Sequence record: PZ445515.1
Direction: 5' to 3' (one strand)
DNA from: a phage
DNA length: 64,000 bases
Numbering within the stretch: position 1 is the stretch's first letter; each line of letters opens with the position of its first letter. The notes beneath the pieces are model-generated. The model did not search any database, was not told where the DNA came from, and saw only the letters and a program-made list of their open reading frames with translations. The translations under genes and the position numbers were made by a program. Positions 7,905-60,392 of this stretch are shown in pieces.

Positions 7905-10235
7905 ATGAGCCATCGCATTGAAAAAGTAATTAAACGTGACGGTACTGTAGAAGACTTTGCTCCTGAAAAAATCAATGGTTGGGCAGAGTATGGTTGCAAA
8001 ACAGTTGATGTAAGCTGGTCAGCCATTACTATGGCTGCTCAAAAAACTCTGCCTAAAGGGGTTGTAGATTCCGACACTCTGATGGATGCATTAATTAAAG
8101 CTGCTGAAAGTCTTATTAAAGATAATCCAGCATACGATGTGCCAGCAAAGGAATTACGTCTTGCGCAAATGCGTAAACGCCTTTATGACTCTTTCGAACC
8201 ACCTTCTTTACGCTTCTTCCATGACCACATGGTTAGCGTAGGTGCATGGGAAGACATGAGTGCATGGATTACCGATGAGCAATTTGAAGCTCTGAATCAG
8301 GTTATCGACCATGATCGTGACCGTCTTTTTACTAGTGGTGGGCTGAAGCAGTTCTTTGATAAGTATTCCCGTCGTAATATAGCCACTGGTGAAATTTATG
8401 AAACCCCGCAATTCGCCTACATGGGTATGGCAATGGCGATGTTATCTCAACCTAACTGGACAATTCTAGATGCAATCGACCTCTACAACGCAATGTCGCT
8501 CCACAAAATCAACGTTCCTACGCCGCCACTGGTTGGTCTGCGCTCTAGTGACCGTGGATTTGCTAGTTGCTGTCTCGTGGATTCCACTGACACGTTGGAT
8601 TCAATCGACACCGCCGAGCACATCGTCTTCAAAATGGTCGCAGCCAGAGCGGGAATCGGGTATCATCTTGAAAGCCGATCAATTGCTGATCCGGTGCGAA
8701 ATGGGGCATTCCCGCATTCCGGAAAACTGCCGTATTATCGACACATTGACCGCTCAGTAAAGGCCAATACTCAGCAAACTCGTGGTGGTTCTGCTACAGT
8801 GTCTTATCCATACTTCGACCCTGAAATCATTCAATTGATGCAGGTTAAGCAACAACGTGCTACAGATGAGAATAAAATCGATAAGATGGATTATTCTCTG
8901 AGCTTTAACAATCTTTTGTTAAAACGTTATCTTAAAAACGAAGATATTACGCTAATGTCATACTTCTATGCTCCAGAAGTTCATGAAGCGTTTTATAGTG
9001 ATGACGAGGCTAAATTTGAAGAAATCTACGTGGCAGCGGAGAAACGTGTGGCATCTCTTACAAAGATCGACCACGAAGGAAAAACAGTTCCTGCAGCTCC
9101 TAAAGTCTCTGCAAAAGAAATCCTAGATACTTGGCTACGTATCCGAATGGAAACAGGACGTATGTATGCTCACCACATTGGGGAATCTAATCGTCACGGT
9201 AACTTCCTTGATCCGATCCGTATGACAAACCTTTGTGTTGAAATTACTCAGCCTACACGCCCGTTCCATCACATTACAGAGCTGTACAAGACAAAAGAGC
9301 AGCTTGATCAAATGAAGCCGGAGGATATTGGTGAAGTATCTCTGTGTAACTTAGGTGGTGTTGTACTTGGACGCATGGAATCTCTGGCTGAGTGGGAAAA
9401 AACTTGCTACATCCTTCTGAAATTCGTTGATACAATTATTGAAATTCAGGATTATCCGTTCCCAACTATGGAATATACGGCTAAGAAACGTCGTAATGTC
9501 GGTATTGGCCTAATGAACGCAGCAGGTGCAATGGCAGCAGAAGGTCTGGCTTACGAAGGTATTGAAGCTCGTAACTGGATCCACCGTGAGGCTGAAAAAC
9601 TGTCTTACTTCCTGCATAAAGCCTCTGTACGCCTGGCTAAGGAACAGGGTGCATGTGAGTGGTTTGATCGTACTAAACCATCTAAAGGAATTCTGGTAAT
9701 CGACACGTACAAGAAAACTGTTGATGAGCTGGTATCCGTAGGTCTAGAAATGGACTGGGAGTCTCTGCGTGCAGATATTCTGAAATATGGTATGCGTAAC
9801 TCTGTTCTGACTGCTCAGATGCCGGGAGAAAGTTCTTCTGTTCTGTTAGGTGTTACTAACTCTATCGAACCACCTCGTAAGATTGTATCTATCAAGGGTA
9901 GTGCAGTAAATAAAGTAATTGCAATTGCTCCAGGTGCAACCGATTGGGAAACGTTAATGAGCTATAAATTGGCTTATGATGTAGATCGTATCGAGTGGAT
10001 CAAATGGGTAGCAACTATGCAGAAATTCTTCAGCCAGTCTGTTAGTACTAATATGTACTACGACTACACCAAGTTTGAGAATGAAATTATTCCTGGCCCA
10101 GTAGTAGTTCGTGATTTCATGACTGCTGTTAAATACGGGTGGAAAACTTGGTATTATGCTAACTTCAACACCGCAAATGGTGGTGGTGCTGGAGAAGAAG
10201 CAGCTGGTTGTGCATCAGGCGGTTGTACTATTTAA
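7905..10235 (+). CDS. nrdA: ribonucleotide reductase class I large subunit
   Basis: 776 aa from ATG 7905; N-terminal ATP-cone (VIKRDGTVEDF), C-terminal CxxGGC tail. Confidence 0.9.
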   Translation: MSHRIEKVIKRDGTVEDFAPEKINGWAEYGCKTVDVSWSAITMAAQKTLPKGVVDSDTLMDALIKAAESLIKDNPAYDVPAKELRLAQMRKRLYDSFEPPSLRFFHDHMVSVGAWEDMSAWITDEQFEALNQVIDHDRDRLFTSGGLKQFFDKYSRRNIATGEIYETPQFAYMGMAMAMLSQPNWTILDAIDLYNAMSLHKINVPTPPLVGLRSSDRGFASCCLVDSTDTLDSIDTAEHIVFKMVAARAGIGYHLESRSIADPVRNGAFPHSGKLPYYRHIDRSVKANTQQTRGGSATVSYPYFDPEIIQLMQVKQQRATDENKIDKMDYSLSFNNLLLKRYLKNEDITLMSYFYAPEVHEAFYSDDEAKFEEIYVAAEKRVASLTKIDHEGKTVPAAPKVSAKEILDTWLRIRMETGRMYAHHIGESNRHGNFLDPIRMTNLCVEITQPTRPFHHITELYKTKEQLDQMKPEDIGEVSLCNLGGVVLGRMESLAEWEKTCYILLKFVDTIIEIQDYPFPTMEYTAKKRRNVGIGLMNAAGAMAAEGLAYEGIEARNWIHREAEKLSYFLHKASVRLAKEQGACEWFDRTKPSKGILVIDTYKKTVDELVSVGLEMDWESLRADILKYGMRNSVLTAQMPGESSSVLLGVTNSIEPPRKIVSIKGSAVNKVIAIAPGATDWETLMSYKLAYDVDRIEWIKWVATMQKFFSQSVSTNMYYDYTKFENEIIPGPVVVRDFMTAVKYGWKTWYYANFNTANGGGAGEEAAGCASGGCTI

Positions 10236-49383: not shown

Positions 49384-49919
49384 GATCCTGCATGTCTCGG
49401 TGCACAATACCTGTACCGAGACTCAAATACAAACTCTCGTTGACAGATAGCTAAATGTATGTTATCATAACTCTATGAGTTAATAGAATTAACCATTTAG
49501 AGTTGCCACACAGAAGGTGTGGTGGTTCAGTAATTTAAAATTACTAACTTGTAGCGGAGGATACGGAGCGACAGGACAAGTTAATAAGTAATTTAATATA
49601 AATTGCTAGAAACATCACGAGACCTTCTGGCGGGGGCAAAGCTCTATATGAGAACCCTGGGGGATCTTATATTTAAAATAAAAGTAAAACTTTTGACCAC
49701 ATAATTTACATTCAAGATGATACACCTGTTGCCGCTCATCTGCTAGGATGGCACAACACTTTCCTAGAAACTCCAGAGTTCTCACGAAATACTCACTCTT
49801 TCTAGGGCGGTTCTCCTAAGTTTCTAGGAACATATACTAGGCGGTTTAATACAGGGCGGTTATGGGGAGGGCGGTTATTTCTAGGAGACATTTTTTGAAA
49901 ACACATTTCCAGAAATTAC

Positions 49920-50520
49920 TGTCGGATTTGCACATTGTGTTTCTAGAAATTTATGGTCGGATTTGCACAATTGCCTAAGTTTTTAGGAACATATAATCTC
50001 TTGAAAATGGCAGCATTATTTCGGGCCGAAGGCCCATGATTGCCTGAGTTTTTAGAGCCACAGAAACTTTCACTTGTCAAGCTATTTTGCCCCATTTAGC
50101 TAATAAGATTTTACTTTATCTGCACTAATCTCAAATTAACCCAAATCTTCTCAACTCTTCCCCAAAATCCCCGCAAATCAGGTGCTACGCACCAAACATG
50201 CGCCCCTCTCGCAGTTCCCTCAAATTTTTCTCGATCTCTCAACTTCTCCCCAAACTCTTACAATCACACACTCTCCAATCGAAGTCACAAAAATCTTGTC
50301 GGATTCGCACAAATAAACCCATGTCGGATTTGCATATATTCTAGTTAATTCCACAGGATTGATGCGCAGCATCGGATTGCTGGAGTTTTTAGGAAAATTC
50401 ATTGTCGGATCCGCACATTATAAAAATTTTTCGGGTCGGATTTGCACACTACCAAAAATTGTCGGATTCGCACATACACGCCCACGCGTAATCCATGGGG
50501 GCAAATGTCGGATTTGCACA
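49920..50520. repeat. array of 8 direct copies of 15-bp motif TGTCGGATTTGCACA (injection-stop-signal-like repeats)
   Basis: Copies at 49920, 49955, 50297, 50322, 50403, 50434, 50460, 50506 with 1-2 substitutions; no ORF. Confidence 0.8.
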
Positions 50521-50559
50521 AAAGCGCAGGGCAATTGCCCTGCTTGCCTGAATACGAAT

Positions 50560-50750
50560 GATAATGAGAATCATTCTCATTTAAAAAGCGGAATGTGAAT
50601 GATAATAATTCGCATTTAAGAATGGAAGTGAGAATTATTCAGGAAGTGAAACGATTCTCATTTAAAAAGTGGAATGATTATTAGTTAGATAGTGAAATGC
50701 GAATGATACTGATTCGTATTTAAGAATGGAAGTGAGAAACACTATTATTT
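50560..50750. repeat. tandem approx. 90-bp repeat pair with palindromic cores
   Basis: Units alternate gagaatcattctcatttaaaaagYggaatg and gaatgata...ttcgYatttaagaatggaagtgagaa; extra copy near 51059. Confidence 0.7.
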
Positions 50751-50753
50751 AAG

Positions 50754-50846
50754 TTATCCACAGACTTATCAACAGCACGATTTGACTTGACAAAATCCTA
50801 GCCATTTTGAGGCGTTATCAACAGACTTATCAACAGCTTATCCTAC
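50754..50846. promoter_or_regulatory. DnaA-box cluster I
   Basis: Perfect TTATCCACA at 50754 plus TTATCAACA x3 and TTATCCTAC within 90 bp. Confidence 0.6.
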
Positions 50847-51414
50847 TGTATAAATATACAGTATTCCTATGCAGTGAATAATTCTAATATACAGCTAAAA
50901 CGCTCTCAAACGCATTCTAACGCGTTTAATTTTGTTGGGGATACTAAAACACGGGTAAAATTGGAGGAGGCTTAGAAATTAGTTAGCGAGCTAACGATCA
51001 CACAAGGCGACACGTAACACCCTAATCATTAGCAGGCTAACCATCGCGGGCGCGGTTAAATGAGAATCATTCTCATTTGAAAATTGGGGGCACTCCCTGA
51101 TAGTTGCGCCCCGTGATTATTAGTCTGGTAGTCGATGCGTGATTTTTTCCTCCTCCCCGTAGGAATCCACCAAATACTGATAATAACCATCGTGATCATA
51201 AATCACTTTATCATATTCGCCACGCTCGACCGCTTGCCGATTCTCCGGCGTATCTGGCACGTAAAAACATCAACCATTGTACTGATCTTGGTTACAACTA
51301 TTTTATTACTCATAATAACTCCCTAGTAAATATATTTTTGCCAATAGTGGCGAATGTTATCGCCACCAGCGGAATCATTAGCGGCCTTACTATTACCAAC
51401 GAAAATATATAATC

Positions 51415-54318: not shown

Positions 54319-54600
54319 TTGTTCGGCCTCCCTCGTTAATCGGTGAGTGAATGATATAGATATTTGTTCACTAGGGGCAAGAAAAAAGAAAATGTTTTTT
54401 ATTCCTTGCCTAGCGCCTAGTTTTATGCTAACCGCGCAGCGGTGCAATAAAGAGCAAAACACGGCGAAGCCACCAGGGCGACGGGTGAAGGCTTTACTTT
54501 AATATTACCCCACCGCATTTAGTTCGTTAGAAAGCGTTTTAGGCCGCTTGAAATTGATTGCAGTTGTTAACACTACCTTTTTACCCTGTATATTTATACA

Positions 54601-55020
54601 GTAGGATAACCTGTGGATAAGTCTGTGTAAAAGTCCTTATATCGCCGCCTATCGTGTCAAATTATTTTGTGCTGTGGAAAACATTGTGGATAACTTAAAT
54701 GATAGTGGTTCTCACTTAGACCGATGATTTCTTATAGTTATTATTTCTCATTAATTTATATGTATATTATATATCATGAAATAGTTAGTTAGCTAATGAG
54801 ATTTTCCGTGATTAATAGTCTGCTAATAATTTAAGCCGTTACAATCCACCAGCATGATTATCATCCTAGCAATTATTAGCCTGCTATCTTTCTGATGCAT
54901 ACTAACAAATAAAAGTCAATTAATTTATTTTATAAAATAAGTAGTTATCCACTGGAAAATAAAAGTCAAGTGGATAACTAGGAAAATTTCATTTTTGCTT
55001 TTGGGGATAAGTTATCAACA
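54601..55020. promoter_or_regulatory. DnaA-box cluster II in divergent intergenic region
   Basis: TGTGGATAA at 54612 and 54685, TTATCCAC 54945, GTGGATAAC 54970, TTATCAACA 55012; very AT-rich. Confidence 0.55.
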
Positions 55021-59657: not shown

Positions 59658-60392
59658 ATGAATAAAGCTATTATGAATATTTCCCGCAGCTTCCCGCATA
59701 TTTCCCGCGTCATGATTTGGGATTTAGACGGCACTATCGTTAATTCTTTCCATCGTGTAGCGCCTTGCTTTGATAATGAGGGCAATTTAGATTTAAATAA
59801 GTATAAGAATGAAGCGTGTAAACATCATTTAATAATGCAGGATACTTTATTACCATTGGTTGAATACATGCGCCAGTGCATGAATGACGCAAATACTTTA
59901 AACATTATTTGCACCGCTCGACTAATGAGCAAGTCGGACTATTATTATTTGCGCAAACAAGGCTTGCGCGGTCGTGGTAATAGTAATATCCGCGTGTTTT
60001 CCCGTGATACACTGCATAAATATTTTGAGGCTGATAAAGTTAGCGAAATATACCACAGCAAGGACGCAGTATATAAATCTTATTATTTTGAATTATTTAA
60101 ACAACTATATCCGAACGCTGATTTTACAATGATTGATGATCATAAAGGCGTGCTATCGGCGGCGGCATCATACGGATTTAAAACGCTGGACGCGCAAGCC
60201 GTTAACGATATTCTATCAATCGGCGTGGCATTAATAGGTGAAACCTTTATTGATGAATCCCTCGATGATGATAATGATTATCAATTCCTAGCTGACCGTT
60301 TGAAATTATGTTGGGAAGGTATGACCGAGGAAGAACGCGCAGAATATAGTTGCAGCCCGCAACAATATATTGAGAAATTAAAAGTTGCGTAA
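59658..60392 (+). CDS. dmp: 5'-deoxyribonucleotidase (HAD family)
   Basis: 244 aa; HAD motif I IWDLDGT and later DD motif; position next to A1/A2. Confidence 0.65.
   Translation: MNKAIMNISRSFPHISRVMIWDLDGTIVNSFHRVAPCFDNEGNLDLNKYKNEACKHHLIMQDTLLPLVEYMRQCMNDANTLNIICTARLMSKSDYYYLRKQGLRGRGNSNIRVFSRDTLHKYFEADKVSEIYHSKDAVYKSYYFELFKQLYPNADFTMIDDHKGVLSAAASYGFKTLDAQAVNDILSIGVALIGETFIDESLDDDNDYQFLADRLKLCWEGMTEEERAEYSCSPQQYIEKLKVA

What the first reader, a model, noticed from the sequence alone, without database searches (positions are those of the whole stretch)
50560..50750. Two tandem approx. 90-bp repeat units with palindromic gagaatcattctc cores
The sequence alternates an A-type unit (gagaatcattctcatttaaaaagYggaatg) and a B-type unit (gaatgata...ttcgYatttaagaatggaagtgagaa), each present twice, with a further A-type copy at about 51059-51080. 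The palindromic cores could form cruciforms or bind a dimeric protein. Location is between the 15-mer array and the first DnaA-box cluster.
Basis: seen in the sequence. Interest (0 to 1): 0.5.

Follow-up and report, generated by a model that had tools for sequence, protein, structure and literature searches.

The report
Fur-repressor binding array in T5
The repeated palindromes are the long-known but unexplained "DRC/DRE" repeats of phage T5's DNA-injection stop region, and by sequence they are a dense array of near-consensus binding sites for Fur, the host's iron-sensing repressor, which turns that old puzzle into a testable host-factor hypothesis.

Summary
The window is phage T5_ev212. Positions 50557-50749 correspond to T5's annotated direct repeats C1-4 and palindromes E-I, in the non-coding "injection stop signal" (iss) region of the terminal repeat. 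The repeats are already known, but the literature I could search assigns them no function.

New here: the cores are Fur boxes.
- A matrix built only from the phage boxes picks out the fecA, fecI, fhuA, entC, entS, fes, cirA, ryhB and exbB promoters in 219 kb of E. coli K-12.
- A matrix learned de novo from 12 K-12 Fur promoters ranks these boxes top in the 64-kb window. They score 17-24 bits, against 14-24 for native sites and 18.9 for the best null score.
- Sites overlap at 6-bp offsets, as in genuine Fur operators.
- All 26 distinct T5-like arrays keep 4-8 such hits.
- A Vibrio T5-like phage has different iterons but the same order of Fur, DnaA and LexA boxes.
- Unrelated myophages carry similar arrays with 29-bp spacing.

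No conserved promoter, no Rfam match and no conserved perfect palindromes were found.

Best reading: a host-Fur-binding module of iss. Binding and function are untested. Interest is moderate to high.

The parts
50557..50581 (.). Fur operator 1 (A-type core). Two overlapping 19-mers 6 bp apart: AATGATAATGAGAATCATT and AATGAGAATCATTCTCATT.
   Evidence: They score 20.2 and 23.8 bits with the E. coli-only Fur matrix. The site is 17/19 to GATAATGATAATCATTATC. It shares 16 contiguous nt with the aerobactin iucA operator.
50592..50616 (.). Fur operator 2 (B-type core). Overlapping 19-mers at 50592 and 50598 (AATGATAATAATTCGCATT).
   Evidence: They score 13.9 and 21.9 bits. D3 copy 2.
50621..50662 (.). 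Two weak or half-site units: AATGGAAGTGAGAATTATT, and A-type copy 2, AAGTGAAACGATTCTCATT.
   Evidence: They score 12.3 and 11.3 bits. D3 copy 3. The right half-site ATTCTCATT is intact and the left half is decayed.
50673..50691 (.). Decayed unit. In T5 itself it is intact: GGAATGATTCTCATTTAAAAAG.
   Evidence: It scores 11.2 bits. Comparison with L001 2170-2195 and the alignment.
50696..50720 (.). Fur operator 3 (B-type copy 2). Overlapping 19-mers at 50696 and 50702 (AATGATACTGATTCGTATT).
   Evidence: They score 15.4 and 17.2 bits. The homologous box in other T5-like phages scores 20-25 bits.
50731..50749 (.). Weak Fur-like site AGTGAGAAACACTATTATT at the start of inverted repeat C'.
   Evidence: It scores 13.6 bits. 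Its inverted partner at 54698 scores 17.0.
51059..51077 (.). Isolated Fur operator, a perfect palindrome AATGAGAATCATTCTCATT, beside the terminator of the leftward pre-early genes.
   Evidence: It scores 23.8 bits. It is present in Lindwurm and, as two boxes, in Vibrio phage X1, but absent from T5 itself.
49915..50520 (.). Context: array of 15-mer iterons TGTCGGATTTGCACA (T5 'direct repeat D').
   Evidence: In Vibrio phage X1 it is replaced by a different iteron, AGAATCCGCACTCACA. That suggests a phage-encoded partner.
50526..50543 (-). Context: GC hairpin GCAGGGCAATTGCCCTGC (T5 palindrome J). It is terminator-like on the minus strand and overlaps the GCGCAGGG motif annotated as the 7.9% major nick.
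50753..50837 (.). Context: two pairs of DnaA boxes (TTATCCACA and TTATCAACA) separated by a conserved spacer.
   Evidence: D10. Davison 2020, bioRxiv 10.1101/866236.
50844..50863 (.). Context: near-consensus LexA (SOS) box TACTGTATAAATATACAGTA (T5 palindrome D).
   Evidence: One mismatch to TACTGTATATATATACAGTA, with 0.01 matches expected. It is conserved in Erwinia, Klebsiella and Vibrio T5-like phages.

Best explanation
The repeats are an array of high-affinity operators for the host ferric-uptake regulator Fur. They sit in the non-coding control region at the inner end of the T5 terminal repeat, the 'injection stop signal' (iss) or Repeat Region 3. Each full unit is a 19-25-bp Fur box made of two binding frames offset by 6 bp, followed by a spacer of about 10 bp. 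Ten overlapping positions of at least 10 bits in 193 bp, plus one outlying box, could seat several Fur dimers, perhaps up to about ten if every frame were filled. Shown here, by computation only: the sequence identity with Fur operators, its conservation, and its fixed neighbourhood (iterons, nick motif, Fur array, DnaA boxes, LexA box). Inferred: Fe2+-Fur occupies this DNA once it is in the cytoplasm, this being the last stretch to enter in first-step transfer. Together with DnaA and LexA bound next door, it would form a host-protein complex that acts in cis on the phage DNA. My preferred role is holding or marking the DNA at the pause in transfer. Roles at the repeat boundary in packaging or replication remain open. 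It is not a classical promoter operator: the flanking genes converge on it and no promoter is conserved.
For: (1) Identity of the locus. The window equals T5_ev212 LR597659 (100%), and the region equals T5 9468-9637, 'direct repeat C 1-4 / palindromes E-I', next to the 7.9% nick. Davison 2020 calls the function 'impossible to guess', and a PNAS paper and a preprint, both from 2026, still describe only repeats, palindromes and DnaA boxes.

(2) Phage to host. A matrix built only from 10 T5/ev212 boxes, or only from 8 boxes of unrelated myophages, was scanned over 200 kb of K-12. Its top hits fall in fecA, fecI, fhuA, fepB-entC, fepD-entS, fepA-fes and cirA: 9 of the top 12 hits lie in 0.75% of the DNA. 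In a further 19 kb it finds ryhB (26.9 bits), exbB, fur, fiu and tonB.

(3) Host to phage. A motif learned de novo from 12 K-12 Fur-regulated upstream regions has the consensus AATGATAATAATTATCATT. In the window its best hits are 50563 and 51059 (23.8), 50598 (21.9), 50557 (20.2) and 50702 (17.2). Native sites score 13.7-24.1. The null maximum averages 16.2 and never exceeds 18.9. There are 10 hits of at least 10 bits in 193 bp against 0.17 expected, P about 5e-15.

(4) Overlapping hits lie exactly 6 bp apart: 50557/50563, 50592/50598 and 50696/50702. This is the signature of footprinted Fur clusters (Chen et al. 2007, PMC2189734).

(5) Box 1 shares 16 contiguous nt with the aerobactin iucA operator, which I verified lies 21 bp upstream of iucA.

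(6) Conservation. All 26 distinct T5-like arrays have 4-8 hits of at least 14 bits, up to 26.7, although the number of units varies. The one position that varies freely (G/T at 6 and 14) is the least informative position of the E. coli motif.

(7) Vibrio T5-like phage X1 has different iterons but the same order: 4 Fur boxes, 3 DnaA boxes, a LexA box, then 2 Fur boxes. The sites for host proteins stay at the host consensus while the phage-specific repeats drift.

(8) Similar arrays with 29-bp spacing lie next to iteron-like repeats in Stephanstirmvirinae and Vequintavirinae. Fur-box clusters without that regular spacing occur in Vibrio and Pseudomonas phages and in a 53%-GC metagenomic phage contig.
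Against: No binding data exist: everything rests on sequence. There is no conserved sigma-70 promoter overlapping the boxes (and inspection), so the usual logic of a Fur operator is missing. The right half-sites are consistently ATTCGCA or ATTCTCA rather than ATTATCA. All units also share the same direction of flank (CATTTAAAAAG), as iterons for a phage protein would. T5 degrades host DNA early, and its receptor FhuA is made mainly when Fur is inactive, so it is not obvious when Fur occupancy would matter. The same kind of array in phages not known to inject in two steps argues against a role specific to the injection stop. I could not read Heusterspreute 1987, Wang 2005 or Davison 2015, so prior mention of Fur cannot be excluded.
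Confidence: 0.62

Rival explanations
1. Fur sponge (decoy). The boxes do bind Fur, but their purpose is titration. Replicating genomes, each with two terminal repeats of about 10 sites, would soak up the cell's Fur pool. That would de-repress iron uptake, or keep Fur off the rest of the AT-rich phage genome.
For: Many boxes are closer to consensus than native operators: up to 26.7 bits against 24.1. The array is denser than anything in 219 kb of K-12. No promoter is associated with it. Arrays also occur in unrelated virulent phages that have no two-step injection. It is established that multicopy Fur boxes titrate Fur (the FURTA assay; my own knowledge).
Against: T5 destroys host DNA and shuts off host expression within minutes, so de-repressing host genes would do little for T5. 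A sponge also would not need a fixed place between the iterons and the DnaA/LexA boxes, yet that place is conserved from Escherichia phages to Vibrio phages.
Confidence: 0.15
2. Iterons for a phage-encoded DNA-binding protein (for example the pre-early A2 protein, a terminase subunit or an origin-binding protein) that merely resemble Fur boxes.
For: All units point the same way and share a flank (CATTTAARAAG). Copy number varies by whole units. The array lies in a region full of other phage-specific repeats. A2 is reported to bind DNA (my own knowledge).
Against: The phage-only matrix recovers the host Fur regulon, and the host matrix recovers the phage boxes. The motif is kept in phage families with unrelated gene sets and in Vibrio and Pseudomonas phages, while the true phage iterons (the 15-mers) change sequence. 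Variation sits at the position Fur does not read. A phage protein with exactly Fur's specificity would be needed.
Confidence: 0.12
3. DNA secondary structure. The palindromes extrude as cruciforms or hairpins that physically jam DNA passage through the tail or channel. This is the classical idea for iss.
For: The single strand folds better than shuffled sequence (z = -4.1 as DNA). A strand nick lies about 30 bp away. The literature proposes secondary structures.
Against: Stems are short, AT-rich and imperfect. Only 2 of 39 distinct boxes are perfect palindromes, and the half-sites change independently with no compensating changes. Unit number and spacing vary between phages.
Confidence: 0.05
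4. A small non-coding RNA is transcribed leftward across the repeats and ends at the 50543-50526 hairpin.
For: There are promoter-like hexamers on the minus strand at 50772-50744 and 50833-50804, and a terminator-like hairpin with a T-run. The RNA fold has z = -3.05.
Against: No Rfam match at E <= 1. The -10 hexamers are not conserved in T5, Shivani or KEY. Unit copy number varies. There is no covariation.
Confidence: 0.04
5. Chance similarity of AT-rich sequence.
For: The window is AT-rich. One perfect 7-1-7 Fur box (60269-60283) lies inside a coding region and is probably a codon artefact.
Against: 0.07 matches are expected at up to 3 mismatches, and 5 are seen. Scores exceed every Markov simulation. 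Poisson P is about 5e-15 for the cluster. The array is conserved in more than 460 phage records.
Confidence: 0.01

Closest known systems
T5 injection stop signal (iss) / Repeat Region 3: direct repeats DRC1-4, DRE1-2 and palindromes palE-palI (Heusterspreute 1987; Wang 2005, AY587007 annotation; Davison 2015 and 2020)
   Same: This is the same locus by homology: window 50002-50951 aligns to T5 10192-9242 at 89.5%. The order is the same: DRD 15-mers, 7.9% nick with palJ, DRC repeats, DnaA-box inverted repeats, palD.
   Different: ev212 has one decayed unit and an extra box at 51059 that T5 lacks. The published descriptions I could read list repeats, palindromes and DnaA boxes only. None mentions Fur, iron, LexA or SOS.
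Fur operators of E. coli iron-uptake promoters (iucA aerobactin P1, fhuA, fecI, fepA-fes, entC, cirA, ryhB)
   Same: The 19-bp consensus, the score range, the 6-bp overlapping frames, and use of both GAGAAT and GATAAT half-sites are shared. Box 1 has 16 contiguous nt in common with the iucA operator.
   Different: Native operators overlap a promoter and hold one strong box, with weaker overlapping frames around it. Here 4-5 strong boxes are spread over about 190 bp between convergent genes, with no conserved promoter.
Host-factor sites in phage cis-acting DNA, such as IHF sites in lambda cosB and attP, and DnaA boxes in plasmid and phage origins
   Same: Sites for abundant host DNA-binding proteins are interleaved with iterons for a phage protein, in a non-coding region next to a genome end.
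   Different: To my knowledge Fur has no described architectural role in packaging, replication or DNA entry. This comparison is an analogy from memory, not a test.
Fur-box arrays in Stephanstirmvirinae and Vequintavirinae myophages (alia, tuntematon, phAPEC8, DU_PP_I, KE22)
   Same: They have two to five boxes, mostly 29 bp apart (23-38 bp in alia and at one DU_PP_I position), of the same TGAKAATNATTMTCA type. They lie next to iteron-like repeats in an ORF-free gap of about 0.5-0.9 kb. The blastn similarity to the T5-like array is 70-87% over 55-120 nt.
   Different: No DnaA or LexA boxes are adjacent. They are followed by a conserved element of about 170 nt that T5 lacks. These phages are not known to inject in two steps.

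Membership tests
Fur box / Fur operator | Match to the 19-bp consensus GATAATGATAATCATTATC (or the 7-1-7 form TGATAATnATTATCA) | tested here: met
   50560-50578 is 17/19, with 0.07 matches expected at up to 3 mismatches. The 7-1-7 mismatch counts are 1-3 for most boxes in ev212, T5 and the relatives.
Fur box / Fur operator | Scores within the range of native operators under a matrix derived from native operators alone | tested here: met
   The matrix was learned de novo from 12 K-12 promoters. The phage boxes score 17.2-23.8 bits, native sites 13.7-24.1, and the null maximum is 18.9.
Fur box / Fur operator | Reciprocity: a matrix from the candidate sites retrieves the known regulon | tested here: met
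   It retrieves fecA, fecI, fhuA, entC, entS, fes, cirA, ryhB, exbB, fur, fiu and tonB.
Fur box / Fur operator | Clustered overlapping sites spaced exactly 3 or 6 bp apart | tested here: met
   Three pairs lie at a 6-bp offset in the window, and the same holds in all T5-like arrays. The criterion is from PMC2189734.
Fur box / Fur operator | Overlaps the -35/-10 region of a regulated promoter | tested here: not met
   The flanking genes converge on the region. The promoter-like hexamers are not conserved among T5-like phages.
Fur box / Fur operator | Metal-dependent binding of Fur protein (EMSA, footprint or ChIP) and an iron- or fur-dependent phenotype | not testable with these tools
   This needs wet-lab experiments. 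No such data were found in the searchable literature.
T5 iss region repeats (DRC/DRE, palE-I) | Homologous position inside the terminal repeat beside the 7.9% nick, in the same order as its neighbours | tested here: met
   and the alignment of 26 T5-like arrays.
T5 iss region repeats (DRC/DRE, palE-I) | Cis-acting arrest of DNA transfer after about 8% of the genome | not testable with these tools
   Even for T5 itself the element responsible has not been mapped genetically.
Cruciform-forming palindrome | Conserved perfect inverted repeat kept intact by compensating changes | tested here: not met
   2 of 39 distinct boxes are perfect. The commonest box has 7 of 9 symmetric pairs.
Structured non-coding RNA | Match to a known family, a conserved promoter and terminator, and covariation | tested here: not met
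   No Rfam match. The promoter is not conserved. Units are gained and lost.
Replication-origin or packaging-site iterons | Direct repeats bound by a phage-encoded initiator or terminase | tested here: inconclusive
   The direct orientation and unit-wise copy-number changes fit. However, the motif tracks the host Fur consensus across phage families while the neighbouring 15-mers do not.

The most novel reading that the evidence does not exclude
Large virulent phages of at least three unrelated lineages carry a portable array of Fur operators with roughly 29-bp spacing, placed beside their own iterons. The lineages are the T5-like Demerecviridae (from Escherichia phages to Vibrio phages), the Vequintavirinae and the Stephanstirmvirinae. 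Vibrio phage F90 and Pseudomonas phage PsgM04F also carry Fur-box clusters, without that regular spacing. On this reading the host iron sensor Fur is a recruited cofactor for handling phage DNA. In T5 it would act with DnaA and LexA as the long-sought cytoplasmic 'stop' that arrests DNA transfer at 8%. That would make the arrest depend on iron status and on the fur gene.
Probability: 0.25. Interest if true: 0.85.

Novelty: new variant of a known kind. Interest (0 to 1): 0.62.

Why it matters
The mechanism that halts T5 DNA entry after 8% of the genome has been open since the 1960s. The iss region is still described only as repeats, palindromes and DnaA boxes. If its most prominent repeats are Fur operators and palindrome D is a LexA box, the region becomes a cluster of sites for three abundant host regulators. 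Direct experiments follow from that: fur, lexA and iron-chelation effects on first- and second-step transfer, Fur ChIP and footprinting, and box-scrambled phages. It would also link a phage whose receptor, FhuA, is itself Fur-regulated to the host's iron sensor. Similar arrays in unrelated virulent phages suggest a general and so far unremarked way in which phages use or neutralise Fur.

Tried and rejected
- **IMG/VR scan for the exact 15-mer TGAGAATCATTCTCA.** The hits were mostly single occurrences in unrelated contigs, at a rate I judge consistent with chance. It was useful only after filtering for clusters.
- **Promoter hypotheses.** The plus-strand TTGCCT-16-GAGAAT, and the minus-strand TTGATA-17-AATAAT, TTGATA-18-CAAAAT and TTGAGA-17-TAGAAT, are consensus-level matches only. 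They are not conserved in T5, Shivani or KEY.
- **Rfam.** No matches in the T5 region or in the myophage loci.
- **Single-strand folding.** The z-scores are significant but cannot discriminate, because any palindrome array gives them.
- **The perfect Fur box at 60264-60288.** It lies in a coding sequence (DDDNDYQ) and is probably a codon effect.
- **Literature searches for Fur with T5 or with phage arrays.** Nothing relevant turned up. The only 'fur box' remark, in the paper that described T5_ev212, concerns the lambda sit operon.
- **Papers not held.** The Davison 2015 review could not be fetched by DOI or by the PMC id I guessed for it. I made no attempt to fetch Heusterspreute 1987 or Wang 2005, which I did not read.
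- **Other E. coli regulators, compared from memory only.** ArgR, CRP, Zur, PurR and NrdR do not fit the cores or the 15-mers.
- **A circular result.** The matrix correlation (r = 0.92) is partly circular, because the boxes were chosen with the Fur matrix. I do not count it as independent evidence.

Full report
**What the window is.** Megablast of 50000-51200 gives a 100% match to Escherichia phage T5_ev212 (LR597659.1, minus strand) and 89.5% to T5 itself at 9242-10192. In the T5 record the homologous stretch lies at the inner end of the 10,139-bp left terminal repeat and is densely annotated. In window order, the features are:
- nine copies of direct repeat D (the 15-mer);
- the "major single-stranded nick 1, 7.9%" with palindrome J;
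- direct repeat C copies 4 to 1, with palindromes I, H, G, F and E;
- inverted repeats C' and D' with direct repeat B (the DnaA boxes);
- palindrome D.

This is the "injection stop signal" (iss), or Repeat Region 3, where T5 DNA transfer pauses after about 8% of the genome has entered. The flanking genes converge on it.

**The observation.** The repeats are real.
- Five in-register copies of a 25-nt unit lie at 50563, 50598, 50644, 50702 and 51059.
- A 67-nt higher-order repeat occurs twice, 104 bp apart (82% identity), which is Davison's DRE1/DRE2.
- TRF reports a period of 46.

There is no 90-bp period, and two units in ev212 are decayed relative to T5. So the feature itself is already known. 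The literature I could read assigns it no function. [quoted passage not shown] A preprint and a PNAS paper, both from 2026, still list only repeats, palindromes and DnaA boxes.

**What the cores are.** GATAATGAGAATCATTCTC (50560-50578) is 17/19 to the textbook Fur box, with 0.07 matches expected at up to 3 mismatches. I tested the resemblance in both directions with real sequence.

*Phage to host.* I built a symmetrised 19-nt matrix from T5/ev212 boxes alone, and another from boxes of unrelated myophages alone. I scanned each over 200 kb of E. coli K-12. The top hits fall in the promoters of fecA, fecI, fhuA, fepB-entC, fepD-entS, fepA-fes and cirA. In a further 19 kb the T5-only matrix finds ryhB, exbB, fur, fiu and tonB.

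*Host to phage.* A Gibbs sampler was run on 12 K-12 Fur-regulated upstream regions with no phage input. It converged on AATGATAATAATTATCATT. With that matrix:
- the three best hits in the 64-kb window are 50563, 51059 and 50598, with 50557 fifth and 50702 sixth (the fourth, 60267, lies in a coding sequence);
- their scores (17-24 bits) span the range of native operators (13.7-24.1) and, except for 50702, exceed the best score seen in 20 Markov simulations of the window (18.9);
- ten positions of at least 10 bits fall within 193 bp, against 0.17 expected.

Strong hits come in pairs exactly 6 bp apart, the spacing found in footprinted Fur clusters (PMC2189734). Box 1 shares 16 contiguous bases with the aerobactin operator, which I confirmed lies 21 bp upstream of iucA on IncF plasmids.

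**Comparative evidence.** All 26 distinct T5-like arrays, from GenBank and IMG/VR, carry 4-8 hits of at least 14 bits, up to 26.7, even though whole units are gained and lost. The position that varies freely (G/T in GAGAAT versus GATAAT) is the least informative position of the E. coli motif. Perfect palindromes are rare, at 2 of 39 distinct boxes.

The most telling case is Vibrio phage vB_ValS_X1, a distant member of the family. Its iterons have a different sequence (AGAATCCGCACTCACA), but the order is preserved: iterons, a GCGCAG motif, four Fur boxes, three TTATCCACA DnaA boxes, a CTGT-N8-ACAG LexA box, then two more strong Fur boxes. Sites that match host proteins stay at the host consensus while the phage-specific repeats drift. 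That is what host-factor binding predicts, and what a phage-protein iteron does not.

Arrays of the same boxes, mostly 29 bp apart, also lie beside iteron-like repeats in ORF-free gaps of Stephanstirmvirinae (alia, tuntematon) and Vequintavirinae (DU_PP_I, KE22). Fur-box clusters without that regular spacing occur in Vibrio phage F90, Pseudomonas phage PsgM04F and a 53%-GC metagenomic contig.

**How it probably works.**
- *Shown:* the sequence-level identity with Fur operators, its conservation, and its fixed neighbourhood.
- *Inferred:* Fe2+-Fur occupies the array, several dimers and perhaps up to about ten, once this DNA is in the cytoplasm. It is the last DNA to enter in first-step transfer. 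With DnaA and LexA on the adjacent boxes it would form a host nucleoprotein complex acting in cis.
- *Preferred role:* I favour a role at the transfer pause. Current thinking already invokes interaction with host components, and the array abuts the estimated shear point. From memory, and not checked here, T5 ejects its whole genome in vitro without host cytoplasm, which would fit a host-dependent stop.
- *Reservations:* the myophage arrays argue for something more general, such as a Fur sponge or an architectural role in packaging or replication beside the iterons. The 15-mers straddle the terminal-repeat boundary, which fits a terminase site.
- *What it is not:* a classical promoter operator. 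No promoter is conserved, there is no Rfam match, and the fold z-scores follow trivially from the palindromes.

**Comparison and novelty.** By homology, the locus is the T5 iss DRC/DRE repeats. By sequence, it meets every computational criterion of a Fur operator except promoter overlap. Binding itself is untested. I therefore file it as a new variant of a known kind: a promoter-less, multi-box Fur operator array in a phage cis-acting region. I found no earlier mention of Fur or LexA at iss. However, three key subscription papers were not available to me, so priority cannot be excluded.

**Verdict.**
- Observation: confirmed.
- Confidence that these are selected Fur-binding sites acting in cis as a host-factor module: about 0.6.
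- Confidence in any particular downstream function: no more than 0.3.
- Interest: 0.62.

Noticed in passing
window 50844-50863 (also 54584-54603): T5 'palindrome D', TACTGTATAAATATACAGTA, is one mismatch from the 20-nt LexA SOS-box consensus, with 0.01 matches expected. It is conserved in Erwinia, Klebsiella, Epseptimavirus and Vibrio T5-like phages. A second, weaker copy (3 mismatches) lies about 3.7 kb to the right, apparently in the inverted partner repeat. The T5 papers I could read do not mention LexA or SOS.
   Followed up: partly
window 60264-60288: A perfect 7-1-7 Fur box, TGATAATGATTATCA, scores 20.7 bits. It lies inside a coding sequence (...DESLDDDNDYQFLADR...) about 130 bp before the stop codon, near the presumed left genome end. 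It is probably a by-product of Asp/Asn codons.
   Followed up: partly
window 49915-50520; L234 440-930: In T5 the 15-mer iterons TGTCGGATTTGCACA straddle the terminal-repeat boundary (T5 10139, about window 50055). In Vibrio phage X1 they are replaced by a different iteron, AGAATCCGCACTCACA. This suggests the site of a co-evolving phage protein, perhaps a terminase or an origin-binding protein.
   Followed up: partly
window 50526-50543: The hairpin GCAGGGCAATTGCCCTGC reads as an intrinsic terminator on the minus strand. It overlaps GCGCAGGG, the motif annotated in T5 as the 7.9% major nick. A GCGCAG(G) motif also sits next to the Fur arrays of phage alia (L003 about 1600) and Vibrio phage X1 (L234 about 946).
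   Followed up: no
L003 1690-1830; L004 1230-1370 (minus strand); L230 1650-1790; L232 1640-1780: An element of about 170 nt is almost invariant between Stephanstirmvirinae and Vequintavirinae, just downstream of their Fur arrays (...TCTTTACAAA...GACGAGCTACCGGCGATC.ACCTTCC...GTTAGCCCCGCCTTTACGCCGTGGGG...). It has hairpin-like segments that differ by paired changes. It has no Rfam match.
   Followed up: partly
L009 5700-5950 (IMGVR_UViG_3300015606_001365): A viral contig of 53% GC carries five near-consensus Fur boxes (17.9-25.3 bits) at irregular spacing, inside a 1-kb gap free of ORFs of 60 aa or more. Other IMG/VR contigs (L027, L034, L064, L066, L077, L111) also have at least 3 boxes within 300 bp.
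   Followed up: partly
window 49760-49880: Further repeats lie to the left of the 15-mers: four copies of AGGGCGGTT-like motifs, and TTCCTAGAAACT / AGTTTCTAGGAA inverted repeats (T5 'direct repeat A' area). Their partner is unknown.
   Followed up: no
L127 39582 (K-12 189,581, map-rpsB intergenic); L128 13862 (yeiS-preT): These are high-scoring Fur-like sites in E. coli K-12, outside the iron-uptake promoters I used (ATTGAGAATCATTCTGAAT and ATTGAGAATAATTATTACT). I did not check them against published Fur ChIP data.
   Followed up: no
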